DNA from: Escherichia coli 042
Lineage (GTDB): Bacteria; Pseudomonadota; Gammaproteobacteria; Enterobacterales; Enterobacteriaceae
Direction: 5' to 3' (one strand)
Assembly: GCF_000027125.1 (NCBI RefSeq)
Contig: NC_017626.1
DNA length: 64,000 nt
This document shows, piece after piece, positions 28,583-47,883 of the stretch. Within the stretch, counting starts at the first letter, position 1; each line of letters opens with the position of its first letter. A program made the position numbers and the translations under genes. The notes under the pieces were generated by a model. That model was not told where the DNA came from, did no database searches, and worked only from the letters and a program-made list of their open reading frames with translations.

Positions 28583-28594
28583 CACGCTACCGCC
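28583..28594 (-). promoter_or_regulatory. ops element (GGCGGTAGCGTG) in the waaQ leader
   Basis: Plus strand reads CACGCTACCGCC, the exact reverse complement of the 12-nt ops RfaH-recruitment motif, about 50 bp upstream of the waaQ start. Confidence 0.8.
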
Positions 28595-28945
28595 CCAGGC
28601 TCAACAGCTACCTGAATACTGATACCGCACTGATATTGACGCGCTAGTGTATCACTTCTTTCGCGGCAATCCGACCCGAATGATTTTTAAGCACATTGTT
28701 GATTTTCAATAAAGAAATCAATCAAATAAAATCATTAGCAACTATATTCTTTTACTGTTGCTCTGCGATTCCTTCCTGCACGTACTGCAGAAATCAATGA
28801 ATCGCATAAAAATACAAAAAAAGTATAGATGTTCAGCAAGAATTGGCGGGTAAATTGCTATTTAAGTCAAAAACGGGAAAAGTAATGGTAAAGCCACAGC
28901 TAAATACATAGAATCCCCAGCACATCCATAAGTCAGCTATTTACT

Positions 28946-35532: not shown

Positions 35533-36174
35533 TTAAACGCCGAACTCTTCGCGATAGGCCTTAACCGCCGCCAGATGTTCCGCCATTTCCGGCTTCTCTT
35601 CCAGGTAAGCAATCAGGTCTTTCAAGGTGATGATAGAGATCACTTTGCAGTTGTAATCACGCTCAACTTCCTGAATTGCCGAAATCTCGCCGCGCCCCCG
35701 TTCCTGACGATCGAGCGAAATCAATACGCCAGCAAGCGTCGCGCCATTGGCCTGAATAATTTCCATCGACTCGCGGATCGCCGTTCCGGCGGTGATCACA
35801 TCATCTACCAGCATTACGCGTCCTTGTAACGCGCTACCAACCAGATTGCCGCCTTCACCGTGGTCTTTTGCCTCTTTGCGGTTAAAGCAGTACGGCAGGT
35901 CAAGGTCATGATGCTCCGCCAGCGCCACGGCGGTAGTGGTCGCAATCGGGATCCCTTTGTAAGCAGGGCCAAACAGCAGATCGAACTCAATGCCGGAATC
36001 CACCAATGCTTCAGCGTAAAAACGGCCTAACAGTGCCAGATCGCGCCCGGTATTAAACAGCCCGGCGTTGAAGAAATAGGGGCTTTTGCGCCCGGACTTC
36101 AGCGTAAACTCGCCAAACTTTAACACCTGCTTGCTAAGCGCAAATTCAATAAACTGGCGCTGATATGGTTTCAT
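35533..36174 (-). CDS. pyrE: Orotate phosphoribosyltransferase
   Basis: 213 aa from [23 protein letters not shown]. Confidence 0.94.
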
Positions 36175-36204
36175 GCCTTCGCTCCTCATCTTACTTTTCT
36201 ACAG

Positions 36205-36235
36205 ACAAAAAAAAGGCGACTCATCAGTCGCCTTA
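36205..36235 (-). terminator. pyrE attenuator hairpin in the rph–pyrE intergenic region
   Basis: Minus-strand hairpin AAGGCGACTGATGAGTCGCCTT followed by T8; sits between the rph stop and the pyrE start. Confidence 0.75.
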
Positions 36236-36239
36236 AAAA

Positions 36240-36956
36240 TCAGTTTGCCAGCGCCGCCTTCTGCGTCGCTACAATGGATTCGATTCCCCCTCGGGCCAGC
36301 GCCAACAAGGTGAGCAGCTCTTCATGGGTGAACGGCTCGCCTTCTGCCGTCCCCTGCACTTCAATGATGCGCCCGTCTTCGGTCATCACTACGTTCATGT
36401 CGGTCTCTGCGGCTGAGTCTTCAACGTATTCCAGATCGCAAACCGCTTCGCCGTTCACAATCCCGACAGAAACTGCGGCTACCATCCCTTTCATCGGGTT
36501 GGTTTTCAGCTTGCCGTTTTCCACCAGCTTCTGTAGCGCATCTGCCAGCGCCACGCAGGCACCCGTAATCGACGCGGTACGAGTGCCACCATCAGCCTGA
36601 AGCACGTCGCAGTCCAGCGTAATGGTGAACTCACCCAGCGCTTTCAAATCTACTGCCGCACGAAGAGCACGGGCGATCAGACGCTGGATTTCCATGGTGC
36701 GTCCACCCTGCTTACCTTTCGCCGCTTCACGCGCGTTACGGGTGTGGGTAGAACGTGGCAGCATGCCGTACTCTGCGGTGATCCAGCCCTGGCCCTGACC
36801 TTTCAGGAAGCGCGGCACGCCTTCTTCAATAGAGGCGGTACACAATACTTTGGTATCGCCAAATTCGACCAGCACCGAGCCTTCTGCATGTTTTGTATAG
36901 TTACGAGTCAGGGTAACGGGACGCACCTGATTATTGCTACGGCCTGCTGGACGCAT
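36240..36956 (-). CDS. rph: Ribonuclease PH
   Basis: 238 aa from [20 protein letters not shown]; reading frame intact to the stop just before the pyrE attenuator. Confidence 0.93.
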
Positions 36957-37082
36957 ATTGAAATCTCCGGCTTGAAACAAATGTGGCTGCGCATTATACG
37001 GACTTCCGGCGGTTATTCCTATCCTGACAAGGCATCGATGGCTATAATCCTTCCACCTCTCCTTTTATAAACAGGAACGTCT

Positions 37083-37946
37083 ATGATCCGCAGTATGACC
37101 GCCTACGCCCGGCGTGAAATCAAGGGTGAATGGGGGAGCGCAACCTGGGAAATGCGCTCGGTAAACCAGCGTTATCTGGAAACTTACTTTCGTCTGCCGG
37201 AGCAGTTCCGTAGCCTTGAACCTGTCGTTCGCGAGCGTATTCGTTCTCGCCTGACGCGCGGTAAAGTGGAATGTACCCTGCGCTATGAGCCAGATGTTAG
37301 CGCGCAAGGTGAGCTGATCCTCAACGAAAAACTGGCTAAACAGCTGGTAACTGCCGCAAACTGGGTGAAAATGCAGAGTGACGAAGGGGAAATCAACCCG
37401 GTTGATATTCTCCGCTGGCCGGGGGTAATGGCAGCCCAGGAGCAGGATCTCGACGCGATTACCGCTGAAATTCTCGCGGCGCTGGATGGTACGCTGGACG
37501 ACTTTATCGTCGCACGCGAAACCGAAGGTCAGGCGCTGAAAGCATTGATCGAGCAGCGTCTGGAAGGCGTCACCGCCGAAGTGGTCAAAGTCCGCGCCCA
37601 TATGCCGGAAATCCTGCAATGGCAGCGTGAGCGTCTGGTCGCGAAGCTGGAAGATGCTCAGGTGCAACTGGAAAACAACCGTCTGGAGCAGGAGTTGGTT
37701 CTGCTGGCACAACGAATTGACGTTGCCGAAGAACTGGATCGCCTCGAAGCGCATGTCAAAGAGACCTACAACATTCTGAAGAAAAAAGAAGCGGTTGGTC
37801 GTCGTCTGGACTTTATGATGCAGGAGTTCAACCGCGAGTCGAACACTCTTGCGTCGAAATCTATCAATGCCGAAGTGACGAATTCTGCCATCGAGCTGAA
37901 AGTGTTGATTGAGCAGATGCGCGAGCAGATCCAGAATATCGAATAA
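37083..37946 (+). CDS. yicC: YicC-family protein
   Basis: 287 aa, MIRSMTAYARREIKGEWGSATWEMRSVNQRYLE... Confidence 0.92.
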   Translation: MIRSMTAYARREIKGEWGSATWEMRSVNQRYLETYFRLPEQFRSLEPVVRERIRSRLTRGKVECTLRYEPDVSAQGELILNEKLAKQLVTAANWVKMQSDEGEINPVDILRWPGVMAAQEQDLDAITAEILAALDGTLDDFIVARETEGQALKALIEQRLEGVTAEVVKVRAHMPEILQWQRERLVAKLEDAQVQLENNRLEQELVLLAQRIDVAEELDRLEAHVKETYNILKKKEAVGRRLDFMMQEFNRESNTLASKSINAEVTNSAIELKVLIEQMREQIQNIE

Positions 37947-37984
37947 GCTATCAATAAAAATCACCAAGCAGCAAAAAACCACAA

Positions 37985-38011
37985 AGCCCGCGAAATGTCG
38001 GGCTTTTTTGT
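37985..38011 (+). terminator. Rho-independent terminator of yicC
   Basis: AAGCCCG...CGGGCTT hairpin then TTTTTTG. Confidence 0.7.
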
Positions 38012-39394: not shown

Positions 39395-39489
39395 CTGAAT
39401 AGATTGAGCCTAGCTCGACGGGGCGAAAAGCGGGAAGCCTTACCGCCTGGCTCAATCACAAAATAAGGCGCAGCGTAAAAGGTGACGCA

Positions 39490-42103: not shown

Positions 42104-43164
42104 CCGTCCAGAAGAAGATATTTTCACTGGCTGGTATGTCGCCAAAATCCAGCAATATGACAGCAAAGTCTGGCATTAATACAGCAGATGCAAGCAAAGT
42201 TTATCATTTTCTGGTGGTAGGAGCGGATGCCTTAACTATGTCAGAAATTACGGTCGATGGTGTTAGCGTTGAGAAGGTCGGCGGCTGCGCCAGAGAATTT
42301 CTGGTCGTAGATGGCTTTCTCTGCTCGCGTAGTGACTCCACAAAAACCTTCGTCCACACGCGCGACGTTAACGAAATGAGCGCGATGTATTGTGCATCTG
42401 GTGCTTCCAATAGTGAGTTTTCGGAGTCCATAAAAAAGAGCTTGCCGTTATGCGGCAACACGGTTTATGGTTATAAGGCACCTCATAAAACGGGTGCCGG
42501 GATTGGCGTCCTGGTAAATCGAATGGCGACATATGACGCGCCGAGCGTCTTTTTTTATGTCGTAGGTCTGACTCACCCATTTTTTGGGCGTTGGTGTATA
42601 ATCCAGCGCCTTTGTCAATCAATGGTGGCTCAGGCAGGGGCTTCTTCGGAAGCGCCGGTATCCATTCGAGCCGGTTACGCCAACCCTGTCTGGGCTACCA
42701 CCAGCGAAATTGGCGTTTCCGGTGGTAGCGTTACATGCTATCGAATGGAGGCTGCCACATGCTGGCTACTACCCCTACCCAAAAACCGCAATTTATCTGG
42801 ATTATCGCCGCAGTTCGCCGCGATTGCCCGACAATTACCGCCAAAATTCATCATATTGCTGCCGAGTCTGAACGCGATGCTCGCCGTTCTCTGGTGCGCG
42901 ATCACGTCTGCTTTTTTGCTGGTCGTATCCGCATGGAGGTGGCACATGATTAAAACCTACGATGTGCATATGGATCCCCTCGAACGCACAAGCCAGATCA
43001 TCACACTGACAGAAGTGATTAACGACATTCTGGTGAGCAACTCTCCCTCACGAGACGAAAGACTGAAGGCGTTACTCGCGATATTGGATCTCGCCGTTCG
43101 TGACGTTCATTTCCTGCTGGAAGGTGGCGAAATGCCAGGAAAAACGGGGGCAACCAATGAATAA
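42097..43164 (+). CDS. Hypothetical island protein; gene boundaries uncertain, possibly two genes read through in one frame
   Basis: 355-codon open frame with an ATGCTAA start overlap; its middle is overlapped by a more gene-like ORF in another frame and an internal ATG at 42946 overlaps that ORF's stop. Confidence 0.35.
42759..42953 (+). CDS. Small protein, possibly Icd-like cell-division inhibitor family
   Basis: [22 protein letters not shown]... in an alternative frame inside the 355-codon ORF; resemblance to Icd-like proteins is from memory. Confidence 0.4.
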   Translation: MLATTPTQKPQFIWIIAAVRRDCPTITAKIHHIAAESERDARRSLVRDHVCFFAGRIRMEVAHD

Positions 43165-44776: not shown

Positions 44777-45140
44777 AAATGCAGAAATGGCGCTTAGCTC
44801 CGCAATCGGAGAGCAGGTGGCAAAGATTGCTGGCGCTGTGTGGATTCATAACCTTCATTCTACTGGTGAAGAGAAAATGGCAATTCAGACGCCAGAGGGA
44901 CGCACCATTACTACATCTCTGAAGGCGTCAGATGTTTGTGATCTGATTTGCGCATTCATGTACCCAGCAATGAGGACTGTCCACGGCGATAAGTGGAAAC
45001 TTGCGACAACCGCTGAATTTGATATGTGGCTAAACAATGATGGCATGCTGACTGATTACGGAATAACCAAGTGGCAGATGCTGGTTAGCCATATCGCAAA
45101 CGCTATAGACCACGTGGGGTACGGTGATGCGAAACATTGA
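44769..45140 (+). CDS. Hypothetical island protein
   Basis: 123-aa ORF overlapping both neighbours. Confidence 0.5.
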   Translation: MRENAEMALSSAIGEQVAKIAGAVWIHNLHSTGEEKMAIQTPEGRTITTSLKASDVCDLICAFMYPAMRTVHGDKWKLATTAEFDMWLNNDGMLTDYGITKWQMLVSHIANAIDHVGYGDAKH

Positions 45141-47883
45141 TCTTATCCGCCAGGTTATCAGTGCGTCTGAAAACAACTGGCCTCATGTGCTGGGCTGCCT
45201 GAACATAAATGTCCCTGACTCTCCGCGCCGTCATGCTCCCTGCCCTGCATGTGGGGGCAAAGATCGATTCCGGTTCGATGACAACGGGCGCGGTAGCTTC
45301 ATCTGTAATCAGTGCGGCGCTGGTGATGGACTGGATTTAATTAAACGCGTAAATAACTGCGACACAACAGAGGCGGCGCTTCTTGCCGCTGATGTTCTGG
45401 GTATTGATTACCGGACAACGGAAACACCAGAAGCCACCAGCCAGAAACGGGAACAACTGGAAACCGAGCGCCAGCGACGCGAACAGGAGCGCCTGAAAAG
45501 GGCAGAGAAGGACGAACAACAAAGACGGGATACGTTTTCCCGTCAGTTTGATGACATGCGCAGAAAGGCTGTAAACGGCAAATCTGATTATCTGGTTGCG
45601 AAAGGGGTAGGTGATTTTACATTCCCCGTGTTGCCCGATGGATCTCTGTTGCTGGCGCTGGTGGATAAATCCGGCGCAGTAACAGCAGCACAGACTATTA
45701 CCTCACATGGTGAAAAAAGACTCCTGACAGGTTCAGCAAAGCGAGGGGCATATCACGCCATAAACGCACCAGAAACAACACAGAGCATCTTAATCGCAGA
45801 AGGGCTGGCAACGGCATTATCTGCCCATTTAATTCGTCCAGAGGCGCTGACAGTGGCGGCGATTGATGCCGGGAACCTGTTATATGTCGCCCAGGTACTG
45901 CGGGATAAATTTCCTTCAGCACAAATCATCATTGCTGCGGATAACGACCACAGCGAAGGAAGACAAAACACGGGGAGAATAGCAGCAGAAAAAGCAGCTT
46001 TATCTGTTTCTGGATGGGTGGCATTACCCCCGACAGATCACAAAGCAGACTGGAATGATTACCACCAAAAACACGGCATTAAATGCGCCACAGAAGCGTT
46101 CAATAAGTCAATGTACCAACCACAGGGTAATGGCGTGAAACAGGAGCCACAGACCATTGAGGGAAGCGATTTTAAGGTTATGGATACCGACCCACTGAAA
46201 CCAAGAATAGAAAGCCGCGAGGATGGTATTTATTGGGTATCTCCGAGAGCTGACAGCCAGAGTGGAGAAATCATCAATAACGAAAGCTGGTTATGTTCTC
46301 CGTTAAGCGTTATCGGTACTGGCAGAGACGATAAAGACCAGTATCTCATTCTTCGCTGGCTGTCGTTTGGTTCTGAAACGCCGACAACCGCTGCCATTCC
46401 ACTGGCTGATATTGGTGAACGTGAAGGATGGCGCACACTTAAAGCTGGTGGGGTAAATGTCACGACCAAAAGCAGCCTCAGAGCAATACTGGCAGACTGG
46501 CTACAACGCAGTGGCTCTCGTGAATTGTGGCGTGTTGCTCATGCCACTGGCTGGCAATGCGGAGCGTACATCATGCCTGATGGGGAAATCATCGGAACAC
46601 CTGAAAATCCTGTGCTGTTCAGCGGGAGAAGCTCAGCCGCAGCCGGATATACCGTCTCAGGGAGCGCGAAAAGCTGGCGTGATAACGTGGCGCGTCTGGC
46701 CTTTGGTAACTATTCAATGATGACCGGGATCGGCGCAGCACTGGCAGCGCCATTGATTGGGCTGGTGGGCGCTGACGGGTTCGGCATTCATTTCTATGAG
46801 CAGTCGAGCGCAGGTAAGACCACCACGGCAAACGTGGCGAGCAGCTTATACGGCAACCCTGATTTACTGCGGCTGACGTGGTACGGAACCGCGCTGGGGC
46901 TGGCAAATGAGGCCGCCGCCCACAATGACGGACTAATGCCGCTTGATGAAGTTGGTCAGGGCGCTGATCCTGTCAGCGTTTCACAGTCTGCCTATGCGTT
47001 ATTTAACGGTGTAGGGAAACTGCAAGGCGCTAAAGATGGTGGAAACCGGGATCTAAAACGCTGGCGTACAGTGGCAATCAGCACCGGAGAAATGGATTTA
47101 GAAACATTTATCGCTACTTCCGGGCGAAAAACCAAAGCCGGGCAACTGGTGCGACTGCTGAATATTCCGTTGAGTAAAGCAGTACGCTTTCACGATTACC
47201 AGAACGGAAAACAGCACGCAGACGCACTGAAAGACGCTTACCAGCATCACCACGGCGCAGCCGGGCGTGAGTGGATTAAATGGCTGGCAGACCACCAGCA
47301 ACAGGCAATTAAAACTGTTCGTGACTGCGAAAGCAGATGGAGAAGTCTGATCCCATCCGATTATGGTGAGCAGGTTCACCGTGTAGCCGCGCGATTTGCC
47401 ATTCTGGAGGCCGCATTGCTGTTAGGCGAGGTTGTAACAGGCTGGGATGCTCAGACATGCCGTGATGCGATACAGCACAGCTATAACGCATGGTTGCGCG
47501 AGTTCGGCACAGGTAACAAAGAACATCAGCAGATTATTGAACAAACGGAGGCATTTCTTAATGCCTATGGGCTTAGCCGTTTTGCACCATTTCCATACAG
47601 CCCGGCAGATTTGCCCATCAAAGATTTAGCCGGATACCGTCAGCGTGGAGAACATGACGAAAGCCCAATGATTTTCTACACATTCCCGGCCACATTTGAA
47701 AAGGAGATCGCATGTGGTTTCAACGCAAAACAGTTTGCTGAAGTGTTGAAAAAAGCCGGGATGCTAACCCCACCAAACAGCGGTCGTGGATACCAAAGAA
47801 AATCACCACGTATTCAGGGACGACAAATAAACGTTTATGTACTCAATTACCAGCCAGGAGATTACAACTCATCTGAAGAATGA
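45124..47883 (+). CDS. Primase / helicase replication protein (P4 alpha-like)
   Basis: 919 aa: N-terminal zinc-binding element (CPACGGKDRFRFDD...CNQCG), a central acidic primase-like region, and a C-terminal P-loop (SSAGKTTTANV). Confidence 0.85.
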   Translation: MMRNIDLIRQVISASENNWPHVLGCLNINVPDSPRRHAPCPACGGKDRFRFDDNGRGSFICNQCGAGDGLDLIKRVNNCDTTEAALLAADVLGIDYRTTETPEATSQKREQLETERQRREQERLKRAEKDEQQRRDTFSRQFDDMRRKAVNGKSDYLVAKGVGDFTFPVLPDGSLLLALVDKSGAVTAAQTITSHGEKRLLTGSAKRGAYHAINAPETTQSILIAEGLATALSAHLIRPEALTVAAIDAGNLLYVAQVLRDKFPSAQIIIAADNDHSEGRQNTGRIAAEKAALSVSGWVALPPTDHKADWNDYHQKHGIKCATEAFNKSMYQPQGNGVKQEPQTIEGSDFKVMDTDPLKPRIESREDGIYWVSPRADSQSGEIINNESWLCSPLSVIGTGRDDKDQYLILRWLSFGSETPTTAAIPLADIGEREGWRTLKAGGVNVTTKSSLRAILADWLQRSGSRELWRVAHATGWQCGAYIMPDGEIIGTPENPVLFSGRSSAAAGYTVSGSAKSWRDNVARLAFGNYSMMTGIGAALAAPLIGLVGADGFGIHFYEQSSAGKTTTANVASSLYGNPDLLRLTWYGTALGLANEAAAHNDGLMPLDEVGQGADPVSVSQSAYALFNGVGKLQGAKDGGNRDLKRWRTVAISTGEMDLETFIATSGRKTKAGQLVRLLNIPLSKAVRFHDYQNGKQHADALKDAYQHHHGAAGREWIKWLADHQQQAIKTVRDCESRWRSLIPSDYGEQVHRVAARFAILEAALLLGEVVTGWDAQTCRDAIQHSYNAWLREFGTGNKEHQQIIEQTEAFLNAYGLSRFAPFPYSPADLPIKDLAGYRQRGEHDESPMIFYTFPATFEKEIACGFNAKQFAEVLKKAGMLTPPNSGRGYQRKSPRIQGRQINVYVLNYQPGDYNSSEE

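What the first reader, a model, noticed from the sequence alone, without database searches (positions are those of the whole stretch)
36240..36956. rph reading frame appears intact
Some K-12 lineages carry the rph-1 frameshift near the 3' end, which is polar on pyrE. Here the frame reads through to a stop just before the pyrE attenuator, so normal rph–pyrE coupling is expected.
Basis: partly seen in the sequence, partly recalled or inferred. Interest (0 to 1): 0.15.

Follow-up and report, generated by a model that had tools for sequence, protein, structure and literature searches.

The report
Intact wild-type rph gene (rph+)
This is the ordinary, full-length E. coli RNase PH gene with the normal pyrE attenuator directly behind it; the laboratory rph-1 frameshift of K-12 MG1655/W3110 is absent, as in almost every E. 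coli genome.

Summary
Observation and interpretation are both correct, and the result is ordinary. On the minus strand, ATG 36956 to TGA 36242-36240 encodes a 238-aa protein. It matches the RNase PH equivalog model end to end (TIGR01966, 380.8 bits, cut-off 141.5). Alignment with MG1655 (rph-1) and with two documented rph+ K-12 strains (C600, NCM3722) shows a five-G run at 36290-36286, as in rph+ strains. MG1655 has four Gs and stops after 228 aa. The stop codon lies 5 nt before the attenuator hairpin (36234-36213, then a T run). The rph-pyrE and rph-yicC intergenic regions are base-for-base identical to K-12, and PyrE is identical in protein sequence. The rph-1 80-mer occurs in 167 of 5,426 complete E. 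coli genomes, and the 60 listed look like K-12 laboratory derivatives. The window is not K-12: it is 98.5% identical and carries a 20-kb island beside yicC. An intact rph was therefore the expected state. Normal translation-coupled, UTP-sensitive pyrE attenuation is inferred from sequence identity and was not measured. Nothing here is new. The island integrated at the yicC stop codon (37947-58051) is a separate and more interesting observation.

The parts
36240..36956 (-). rph coding sequence, 238 aa plus TGA stop. This is the wild-type (rph+) allele.
   Evidence: ORF and translation. (TIGR01966, 380.8 bits, full length). (differs from K-12 rph+ RNase PH only at A138 vs V and T216 vs I). (RefSeq protein WP_001247093.1, 'ribonuclease PH', annotated on a stretch 100% identical in DNA in MEI003; the same accession is annotated in SCU-316).
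36286..36290 (-). Run of five G (five C on the + strand), rph nt 667-671, codons 223-224. This is where the rph-1 single-base deletion occurs, and all five bases are present here.
   Evidence: GGGGG in the window, C600 and NCM3722; GGGG in MG1655. (this is the only indel versus MG1655).
36269..36271 (-). Out-of-frame TAG that becomes the premature stop in rph-1. It is not in frame in this window.
   Evidence: deleting one G in silico gives ...ARGESNPL*, 228 aa, with the stop at 36271-36269. (MG1655 translation ends the same way).
36240..36242 (-). Natural rph stop codon TGA, 5 nt upstream of the attenuator hairpin.
36207..36234 (-). pyrE attenuator, an intrinsic terminator. Stem-loop AAGGCGACTGATGAGTCGCCTT at 36234-36213, followed by a T run at 36212-36207.
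   Evidence: the only terminator-like site in 36100-37150. (hairpin in the MFE fold, -17.3 kcal/mol, z = -3.6). (identical to K-12).
35533..36174 (-). pyrE coding sequence (orotate phosphoribosyltransferase, 213 aa), the downstream gene of the rph-pyrE operon.
   Evidence: TIGR00336, 240.6 bits. (16 substitutions versus MG1655, all synonymous, so the protein is identical).
36957..37082 (.). rph-yicC divergent intergenic region, which holds the rph ribosome-binding site and presumably its promoter.
   Evidence: no differences from MG1655. (no strong sigma-70 consensus match, so the promoter position was not established here).

Best explanation
The segment is the wild-type rph-pyrE operon of a natural (non-K-12) E. 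coli chromosome. rph encodes full-length, 238-aa RNase PH, a phosphorolytic 3'-5' exoribonuclease used in tRNA 3'-end maturation. Its last codons also act as the leader reading frame for pyrE. Ribosomes finishing rph reach the TGA only 5 nt before the attenuator hairpin. When RNA polymerase is slowed by low UTP, the closely following ribosome covers the 5' arm of the hairpin, termination fails and pyrE is transcribed. When UTP is high, polymerase runs ahead, the hairpin forms and transcription stops. In rph-1 strains, loss of one G moves the stop 29 nt upstream, 34 nt from the hairpin. Ribosomes then release too early, termination is constitutively high and pyrE is under-expressed. That lesion is absent here. 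Shown here: the intact frame, the allele state, the stop-to-hairpin geometry and identity with K-12 regulatory DNA. Inferred from established knowledge: enzyme activity and UTP-sensitive coupling.
For: The frame is intact and the family match is full length. The G5 run matches rph+ C600 and NCM3722, against G4 in MG1655. This is the only indel versus MG1655 across 4.5 kb. The stop is 5 nt from a hairpin plus T run that folds significantly better than shuffles. The rph-pyrE and rph-yicC intergenic regions are identical to K-12, and all 16 pyrE differences are synonymous. Of the 12 rph substitutions versus K-12, 10 are synonymous, which indicates purifying selection. The same 901-bp stretch is 100% identical in at least 10 complete genomes, where it is annotated 'ribonuclease PH'. 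An exact rph-1 80-mer occurs in only 167 of 5,426 genomes, and the 60 listed are named K-12 laboratory strains or have K-12-like genome sizes (about 4.5-4.7 Mb). For the mechanism and the rph-1 phenotype: PMC2784333 (1-bp deletion, stop-codon distance to the attenuator loop), PMC9997739, PMC5379014, PMC3378859 and PMC4470420. All of these cite Jensen 1993 (J Bacteriol 175:3401) and Bonekamp et al. 1984 (EMBO J 3:2857).
Against: There is no direct evidence against it. RNase PH activity and pyrE expression were not and cannot be measured here. Two residues differ from the K-12 rph+ protein (Ala138 for Val, Thr216 for Ile), and their effect was not tested, although both changes are conservative. 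The simple promoter scan found no consensus sigma-70 site upstream of rph, so the promoter is assumed only because the DNA is identical to K-12. The primary papers (Jensen 1993; Bonekamp 1984) were not available to read, so details of the mechanism rest on secondary citations and prior knowledge.
Confidence: 0.97

Rival explanations
1. The gene is a pseudogene after all. It would carry rph-1 or another inactivating lesion (a frameshift elsewhere, a premature stop, or the compensatory 82-bp rph-pyrE deletion seen in evolved MG1655).
For: There is none.
Against: The reading frame is uninterrupted for 238 codons. It covers the full length of TIGR01966 and of PDB 1R6L. There is no indel relative to rph+ C600 and NCM3722 in the 3' end, and none relative to MG1655 other than the restored G. 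The 82-bp deletion described in PMC2784333 is absent, because the whole 3' end and intergenic region align without gaps.
Confidence: 0.01
2. The frame is intact only because of an assembly or homopolymer-calling error at the G5 run. The real strain would have a different run length.
For: Homopolymer runs are typical sites of long-read consensus errors, and the allele difference is exactly one base in such a run.
Against: G5 is the state found in the documented rph+ strains. The whole 901-bp stretch is 100% identical in at least 10 independently assembled genomes. A G4 state with K-12 flanks is seen in 167 genomes, and all 60 listed look like K-12 laboratory derivatives. An error that happened to produce the canonical sequence is very unlikely.
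Confidence: 0.01
3. The ORF is intact, but rph or pyrE function differs from the K-12 wild type. The cause would be the two amino-acid differences (A138, T216) or the 20-kb mobile element inserted about 1 kb away at the end of the divergent neighbour yicC.
For: Two non-synonymous differences from K-12 exist. The island is present at 37947-58051.
Against: The same protein, WP_001247093.1, is annotated in unrelated isolates both with the island (SCU-316) and without it (MEI003). The substitutions are conservative. The island lies beyond the 3' end of yicC, which is transcribed away from rph, and leaves the rph-yicC promoter region and yicC itself (287 aa, full-length TIGR00255) untouched.
Confidence: 0.02

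Closest known systems
E. coli K-12 rph+ allele (C600, NCM3722, DH10B, DH5alpha, MC4100 and others; RefSeq WP_001247096.1)
   Same: Same 238-aa length, same G5 run, same stop codon and C-terminus, and identical attenuator and intergenic regions.
   Different: Twelve nucleotide substitutions in 717 nt, of which two change the protein: Ala138 here versus Val, and Thr216 here versus Ile.
rph-1 allele of E. coli K-12 W1485 descendants (MG1655, W3110, BW25113; b3643 'truncated RNase PH')
   Same: Same gene, same operon, same attenuator and same upstream region.
   Different: rph-1 lacks one G of the run. It ends ...ARGESNPL after 228 aa, with its stop 29 nt further from the attenuator. The window does not carry this deletion.
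RNase PH of Pseudomonas aeruginosa (PDB 1R6L/1R6M) and Bacillus subtilis (1OYP)
   Same: Full-length sequence homologues (E 3.7e-104 and 3.1e-83, aligned over residues 2-237 and 1-236).
   Different: They are orthologues in other species. The rph-pyrE attenuator arrangement was not examined in those species here.
E. coli pyrBI leader attenuation (UTP-sensitive transcription-translation coupling)
   Same: Same logic according to established knowledge: a translating ribosome close behind a UTP-limited RNA polymerase prevents terminator hairpin formation.
   Different: pyrBI uses a dedicated short leader peptide, whereas pyrE uses the end of a full-size gene (rph) as the leader frame. This comparison comes from prior knowledge and was not tested here.

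Membership tests
Ribonuclease PH (NCBIfam TIGR01966 equivalog) | Whole-protein score above the curated cut-off, with full-length coverage of the model | tested here: met
   380.8 bits against a cut-off of 141.5; protein residues 2-236 on model positions 1-235 of 236. The related models Rrp41, Rrp42 and PNPase score far below their cut-offs.
Ribonuclease PH (NCBIfam TIGR01966 equivalog) | Conserved phosphate-binding segment (G-G-T-R-T-A-S around residues 123-129; the role of Thr125/Arg126 is recalled from the RNase PH structure literature) | tested here: met
   The sequence [12 protein letters not shown] is present and identical to K-12. The functional role of these residues is prior knowledge and was not tested.
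Ribonuclease PH (NCBIfam TIGR01966 equivalog) | Phosphate-dependent 3'-5' exoribonuclease activity | not testable with these tools
   This needs an enzyme assay.
rph-1 allele | Single-base deletion in the G run at rph nt 667-671, giving a frameshift and a 228-aa product ending GESNPL | tested here: not met
   The window has GGGGG and a 238-aa product; MG1655 has GGGG and 228 aa.
Wild-type rph-pyrE operon with translation-coupled attenuator | rph stop codon immediately upstream (a few nt) of a G+C-rich hairpin followed by a U run, located between rph and pyrE | tested here: met
   TGA at 36242-36240, a 5-nt spacer, hairpin at 36234-36213, T run at 36212-36207, and pyrE ATG at 36174. The 65-nt intergenic region is identical to K-12.
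Wild-type rph-pyrE operon with translation-coupled attenuator | pyrE expression rises when UTP is low and depends on translation reaching the end of rph | not testable with these tools
   This is inferred from sequence identity with the K-12 system studied by Bonekamp et al. 1984 and Jensen 1993, as summarised in PMC2784333.

The most novel reading that the evidence does not exclude
The only non-trivial reading left open is that the natural RNase PH variant here (Ala138, Thr216) differs measurably in activity or stability from the K-12 rph+ enzyme on which the biochemistry was done. Nothing in the data points to this. The same protein accession is annotated in other isolates, and most differences from K-12 are synonymous.
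Probability: 0.03. Interest if true: 0.12.

Novelty: already known. Interest (0 to 1): 0.03.

Why it matters
It matters very little. It confirms that the source strain does not carry the laboratory rph-1 lesion, so it should not show the partial pyrimidine starvation or the lack of RNase PH typical of MG1655/W3110. That is useful only as a strain-typing and annotation sanity check. One practical point: RefSeq/PGAP labels many of the rph-1-carrying records simply 'ribonuclease PH'. The allele therefore has to be read from the sequence, not from the product name.

Tried and rejected
1. I tried to read the primary sources (Jensen 1993, PMC204738; Bonekamp 1984, PMC557777) and the Turnbough and Switzer review (PMC2415746). 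None is held, so secondary open-access papers were used instead.
2. The sigma-70 promoter scan of 36100-37150 found no site. This is uninformative, because the region is identical to K-12.
3. The Rfam gathering search found no family covering the pyrE attenuator. I take this to mean there is no curated family for it, not that it is absent.
4. I considered whether the adjacent 20-kb island could affect rph. I rejected this because the island lies beyond the 3' end of the divergently transcribed yicC, and the same rph allele occurs both with and without the island.
5. I considered an exact-sequence cluster look-up and a large protein homology search for RNase PH. I did not run them, because the genome-collection results already answer the question and the searches are costly.

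Full report
**Observation.** The gene lies on the minus strand: ATG at 36956, TGA at 36242-36240, 238 codons. The product matches the NCBIfam RNase PH equivalog TIGR01966 at 380.8 bits (cut-off 141.5) over model positions 1-235 of 236. It also aligns end to end with solved RNase PH structures (P. aeruginosa 1R6L, E 3.7e-104, residues 2-237). The neighbours are pyrE downstream (35533-36174, minus strand, TIGR00336) and yicC, which is transcribed divergently (37083-37946). This is the canonical E. coli order slmA-pyrE-rph-yicC.

**Allele test.** I fetched MG1655 (NC_000913.3), where b3643 is annotated 'truncated RNase PH' and translates to 228 aa ending ...ARGESNPL*. Alignment of the 3' end shows the window has CGAGGGGGAATC where MG1655 has CGA-GGGGAATC.
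- Across the whole 4.5-kb collinear block (98.5% identity), this is the only indel.
- As wild-type controls I used C600 and NCM3722. Both are documented rph+: C600 was the rph+ donor in PMC3378859, and NCM3722 'lacks the rph-1 mutation' according to PMC4470420.
- Both controls have the same G5 run, the same TGA and the same C-terminus ...[18 protein letters not shown] as the window.
- Deleting one G in silico from the window reproduces the 228-aa rph-1 product, with the premature TAG at 36271-36269.
- The window protein differs from K-12 rph+ RNase PH only at Ala138 (Val in K-12) and Thr216 (Ile in K-12). The other 10 rph substitutions are synonymous.
- RefSeq annotates WP_001247093.1, 'ribonuclease PH', on the stretch of strain MEI003 that is 100% identical in DNA to the window, and annotates the same accession in SCU-316.

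**Attenuator geometry.** After the TGA come 5 nt (UUUUU), then the stem-loop AAGGCGACUGAUGAGUCGCCUU (36234-36213) and a U run (36212-36207).
- It is the only terminator-like site in 36100-37150.
- It is present in the minimum-free-energy fold (-17.3 kcal/mol; z = -3.6 against shuffles).
- pyrE starts at 36174.
- The 65-nt rph-pyrE spacer and the 126-nt rph-yicC spacer show no difference from MG1655. All 16 pyrE substitutions are synonymous.
- In rph-1, the stop would end 34 nt before the hairpin instead of 5 nt.

This geometry agrees with the published account. The 1-bp deletion lowers pyrE expression. Moving the stop codon back towards the attenuator loop is proposed to restore it (Conrad et al. 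2009, PMC2784333, citing Jensen 1993 and Bonekamp et al. 1984; see also PMC5933015).

**Population context.**
- The 901-bp rph-pyrE junction is present in 5,424 of 5,426 complete E. coli genomes. It is 100% identical in at least ten of them.
- The exact rph-1 80-mer is present in 167 genomes. The 60 listed are named K-12 laboratory strains (MG1655, W3110, BW25113, J53, HMS174, MFDpir and others) or have K-12-like genome sizes of about 4.5-4.7 Mb.
- The repaired K-12 83-mer with G5 is present in 180 genomes, including C600, DH5alpha, DH10B, DH1, MC4100, RR1 and NCM3722.
- The literature places the origin of rph-1 in the W1485 lineage (PMC5379014; PMC9997739).
- The window is not K-12. It is 98.5% identical and has a 20-kb island that K-12 lacks. 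Absence of rph-1 was therefore the default expectation.

**Mechanism.**
- Shown here: an intact frame, the wild-type allele state, the stop-to-hairpin spacing, and identity of the regulatory DNA with the experimentally studied K-12 sequence.
- Inferred from established knowledge of the rph-pyrE operon (Bonekamp et al. 1984; Jensen 1993; summarised in PMC2784333): ribosomes finishing rph close behind a UTP-limited polymerase mask the 5' arm of the hairpin and allow read-through into pyrE. At high UTP the hairpin forms and transcription terminates.
- Not testable here: enzyme activity and regulation.

**Verdict.** Observation confirmed and interpretation supported. The feature is already known and of very low interest.

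**Side observation.** K-12 homology breaks at the last base of the yicC stop codon (37946) and resumes at 58052. The two junctions share an imperfect direct repeat ending in GAATAA.
- The intervening 20.1 kb encodes a tyrosine integrase, an HTH protein, an Ant anti-repressor, an ash/repressor-like protein and a large primase.
- It also carries a P22-type gp14/ejection-protein cassette, a PerC-family regulator and a Doc-family toxin.
- Rfam finds int-alpA, isrK and C4 antisense RNAs inside it.
- No tRNA gene is present at the attachment site.
- Deposited phage genomes cover at most 3% of it.
- Only 49 of 5,426 genomes hold at least 80% of the 24-kb query that spans the element and about 4 kb of flanking chromosome.
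- It does not affect the rph conclusion, but it deserves its own evaluation.

Noticed in passing
window 37947-58051: A 20.1-kb integrative element is inserted exactly at the yicC stop codon, between yicC and dinD. K-12 homology stops at 37946 and resumes at 58052. The junctions share an imperfect direct repeat: CAGAATATCGAATAA on the left and CAGATCCAAGAATAA on the right. There is no tRNA at the site. The element encodes an integrase (38051/38135-39394), an Ant anti-repressor, an ash/repressor-like protein, a 919-aa primase (45124-47883) and a P22-type gp14 plus three ejection-protein genes (48646-53304). According to the SCU-316 annotation it also has a PerC-family regulator and a Doc-family toxin. 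No capsid, terminase, portal or tail genes appear among ORFs of 130 aa or more. Deposited phage genomes cover at most 3% of it. At least 80% of the 24-kb query (window 37900-62000, which includes about 4 kb of flanking chromosome) is found in only 49 of 5,426 complete E. coli genomes. It looks like a satellite-type element carrying podovirus ejection-protein genes.
   Followed up: partly
window 39403-39469, 42478-42555, 42618-42705 (all + strand): Rfam gathering-level hits inside the island: int-alpA RNA (60.6 bits), isrK Hfq-binding RNA (67.1 bits) and C4 antisense RNA (79.5 bits). From memory, C4 and isrK are associated with P1/P7-type immunity regions.
   Followed up: no
window 28583-28621 (- strand): A JUMPstart RNA element (Rfam RF01707, 55.2 bits). 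By synteny with MEI003 it is presumably the leader of the waa (rfaQ) LPS core operon.
   Followed up: no
related genome NZ_CP139196.1 (strain GN25), hit H11, record 89252-90863: This natural isolate has an IS200C-family transposase gene annotated within the rph-pyrE stretch; the match is split into two pieces spanning 1,612 bp instead of 901. Depending on its exact position, the insertion could separate rph translation from the pyrE attenuator. That would make it a natural counterpart of a coupling defect.
   Followed up: no
RefSeq records listed (e.g. NC_007779.1 W3110, NZ_CP009273.1 BW25113): Most records carrying the exact rph-1 80-mer are annotated simply 'rph: ribonuclease PH' in the hit table. 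Only NC_000913.3 says 'truncated RNase PH'. The product name therefore does not reveal the allele.
   Followed up: no
window 37984-38010 (+ strand): Directly after the yicC stop, the island's left end supplies a terminator-like hairpin followed by a T run (AAAGCCCGCGAAATGTCGGGCTTTTTTG). It replaces the native yicC-dinD spacer. This was seen by eye and was not scanned.
   Followed up: no
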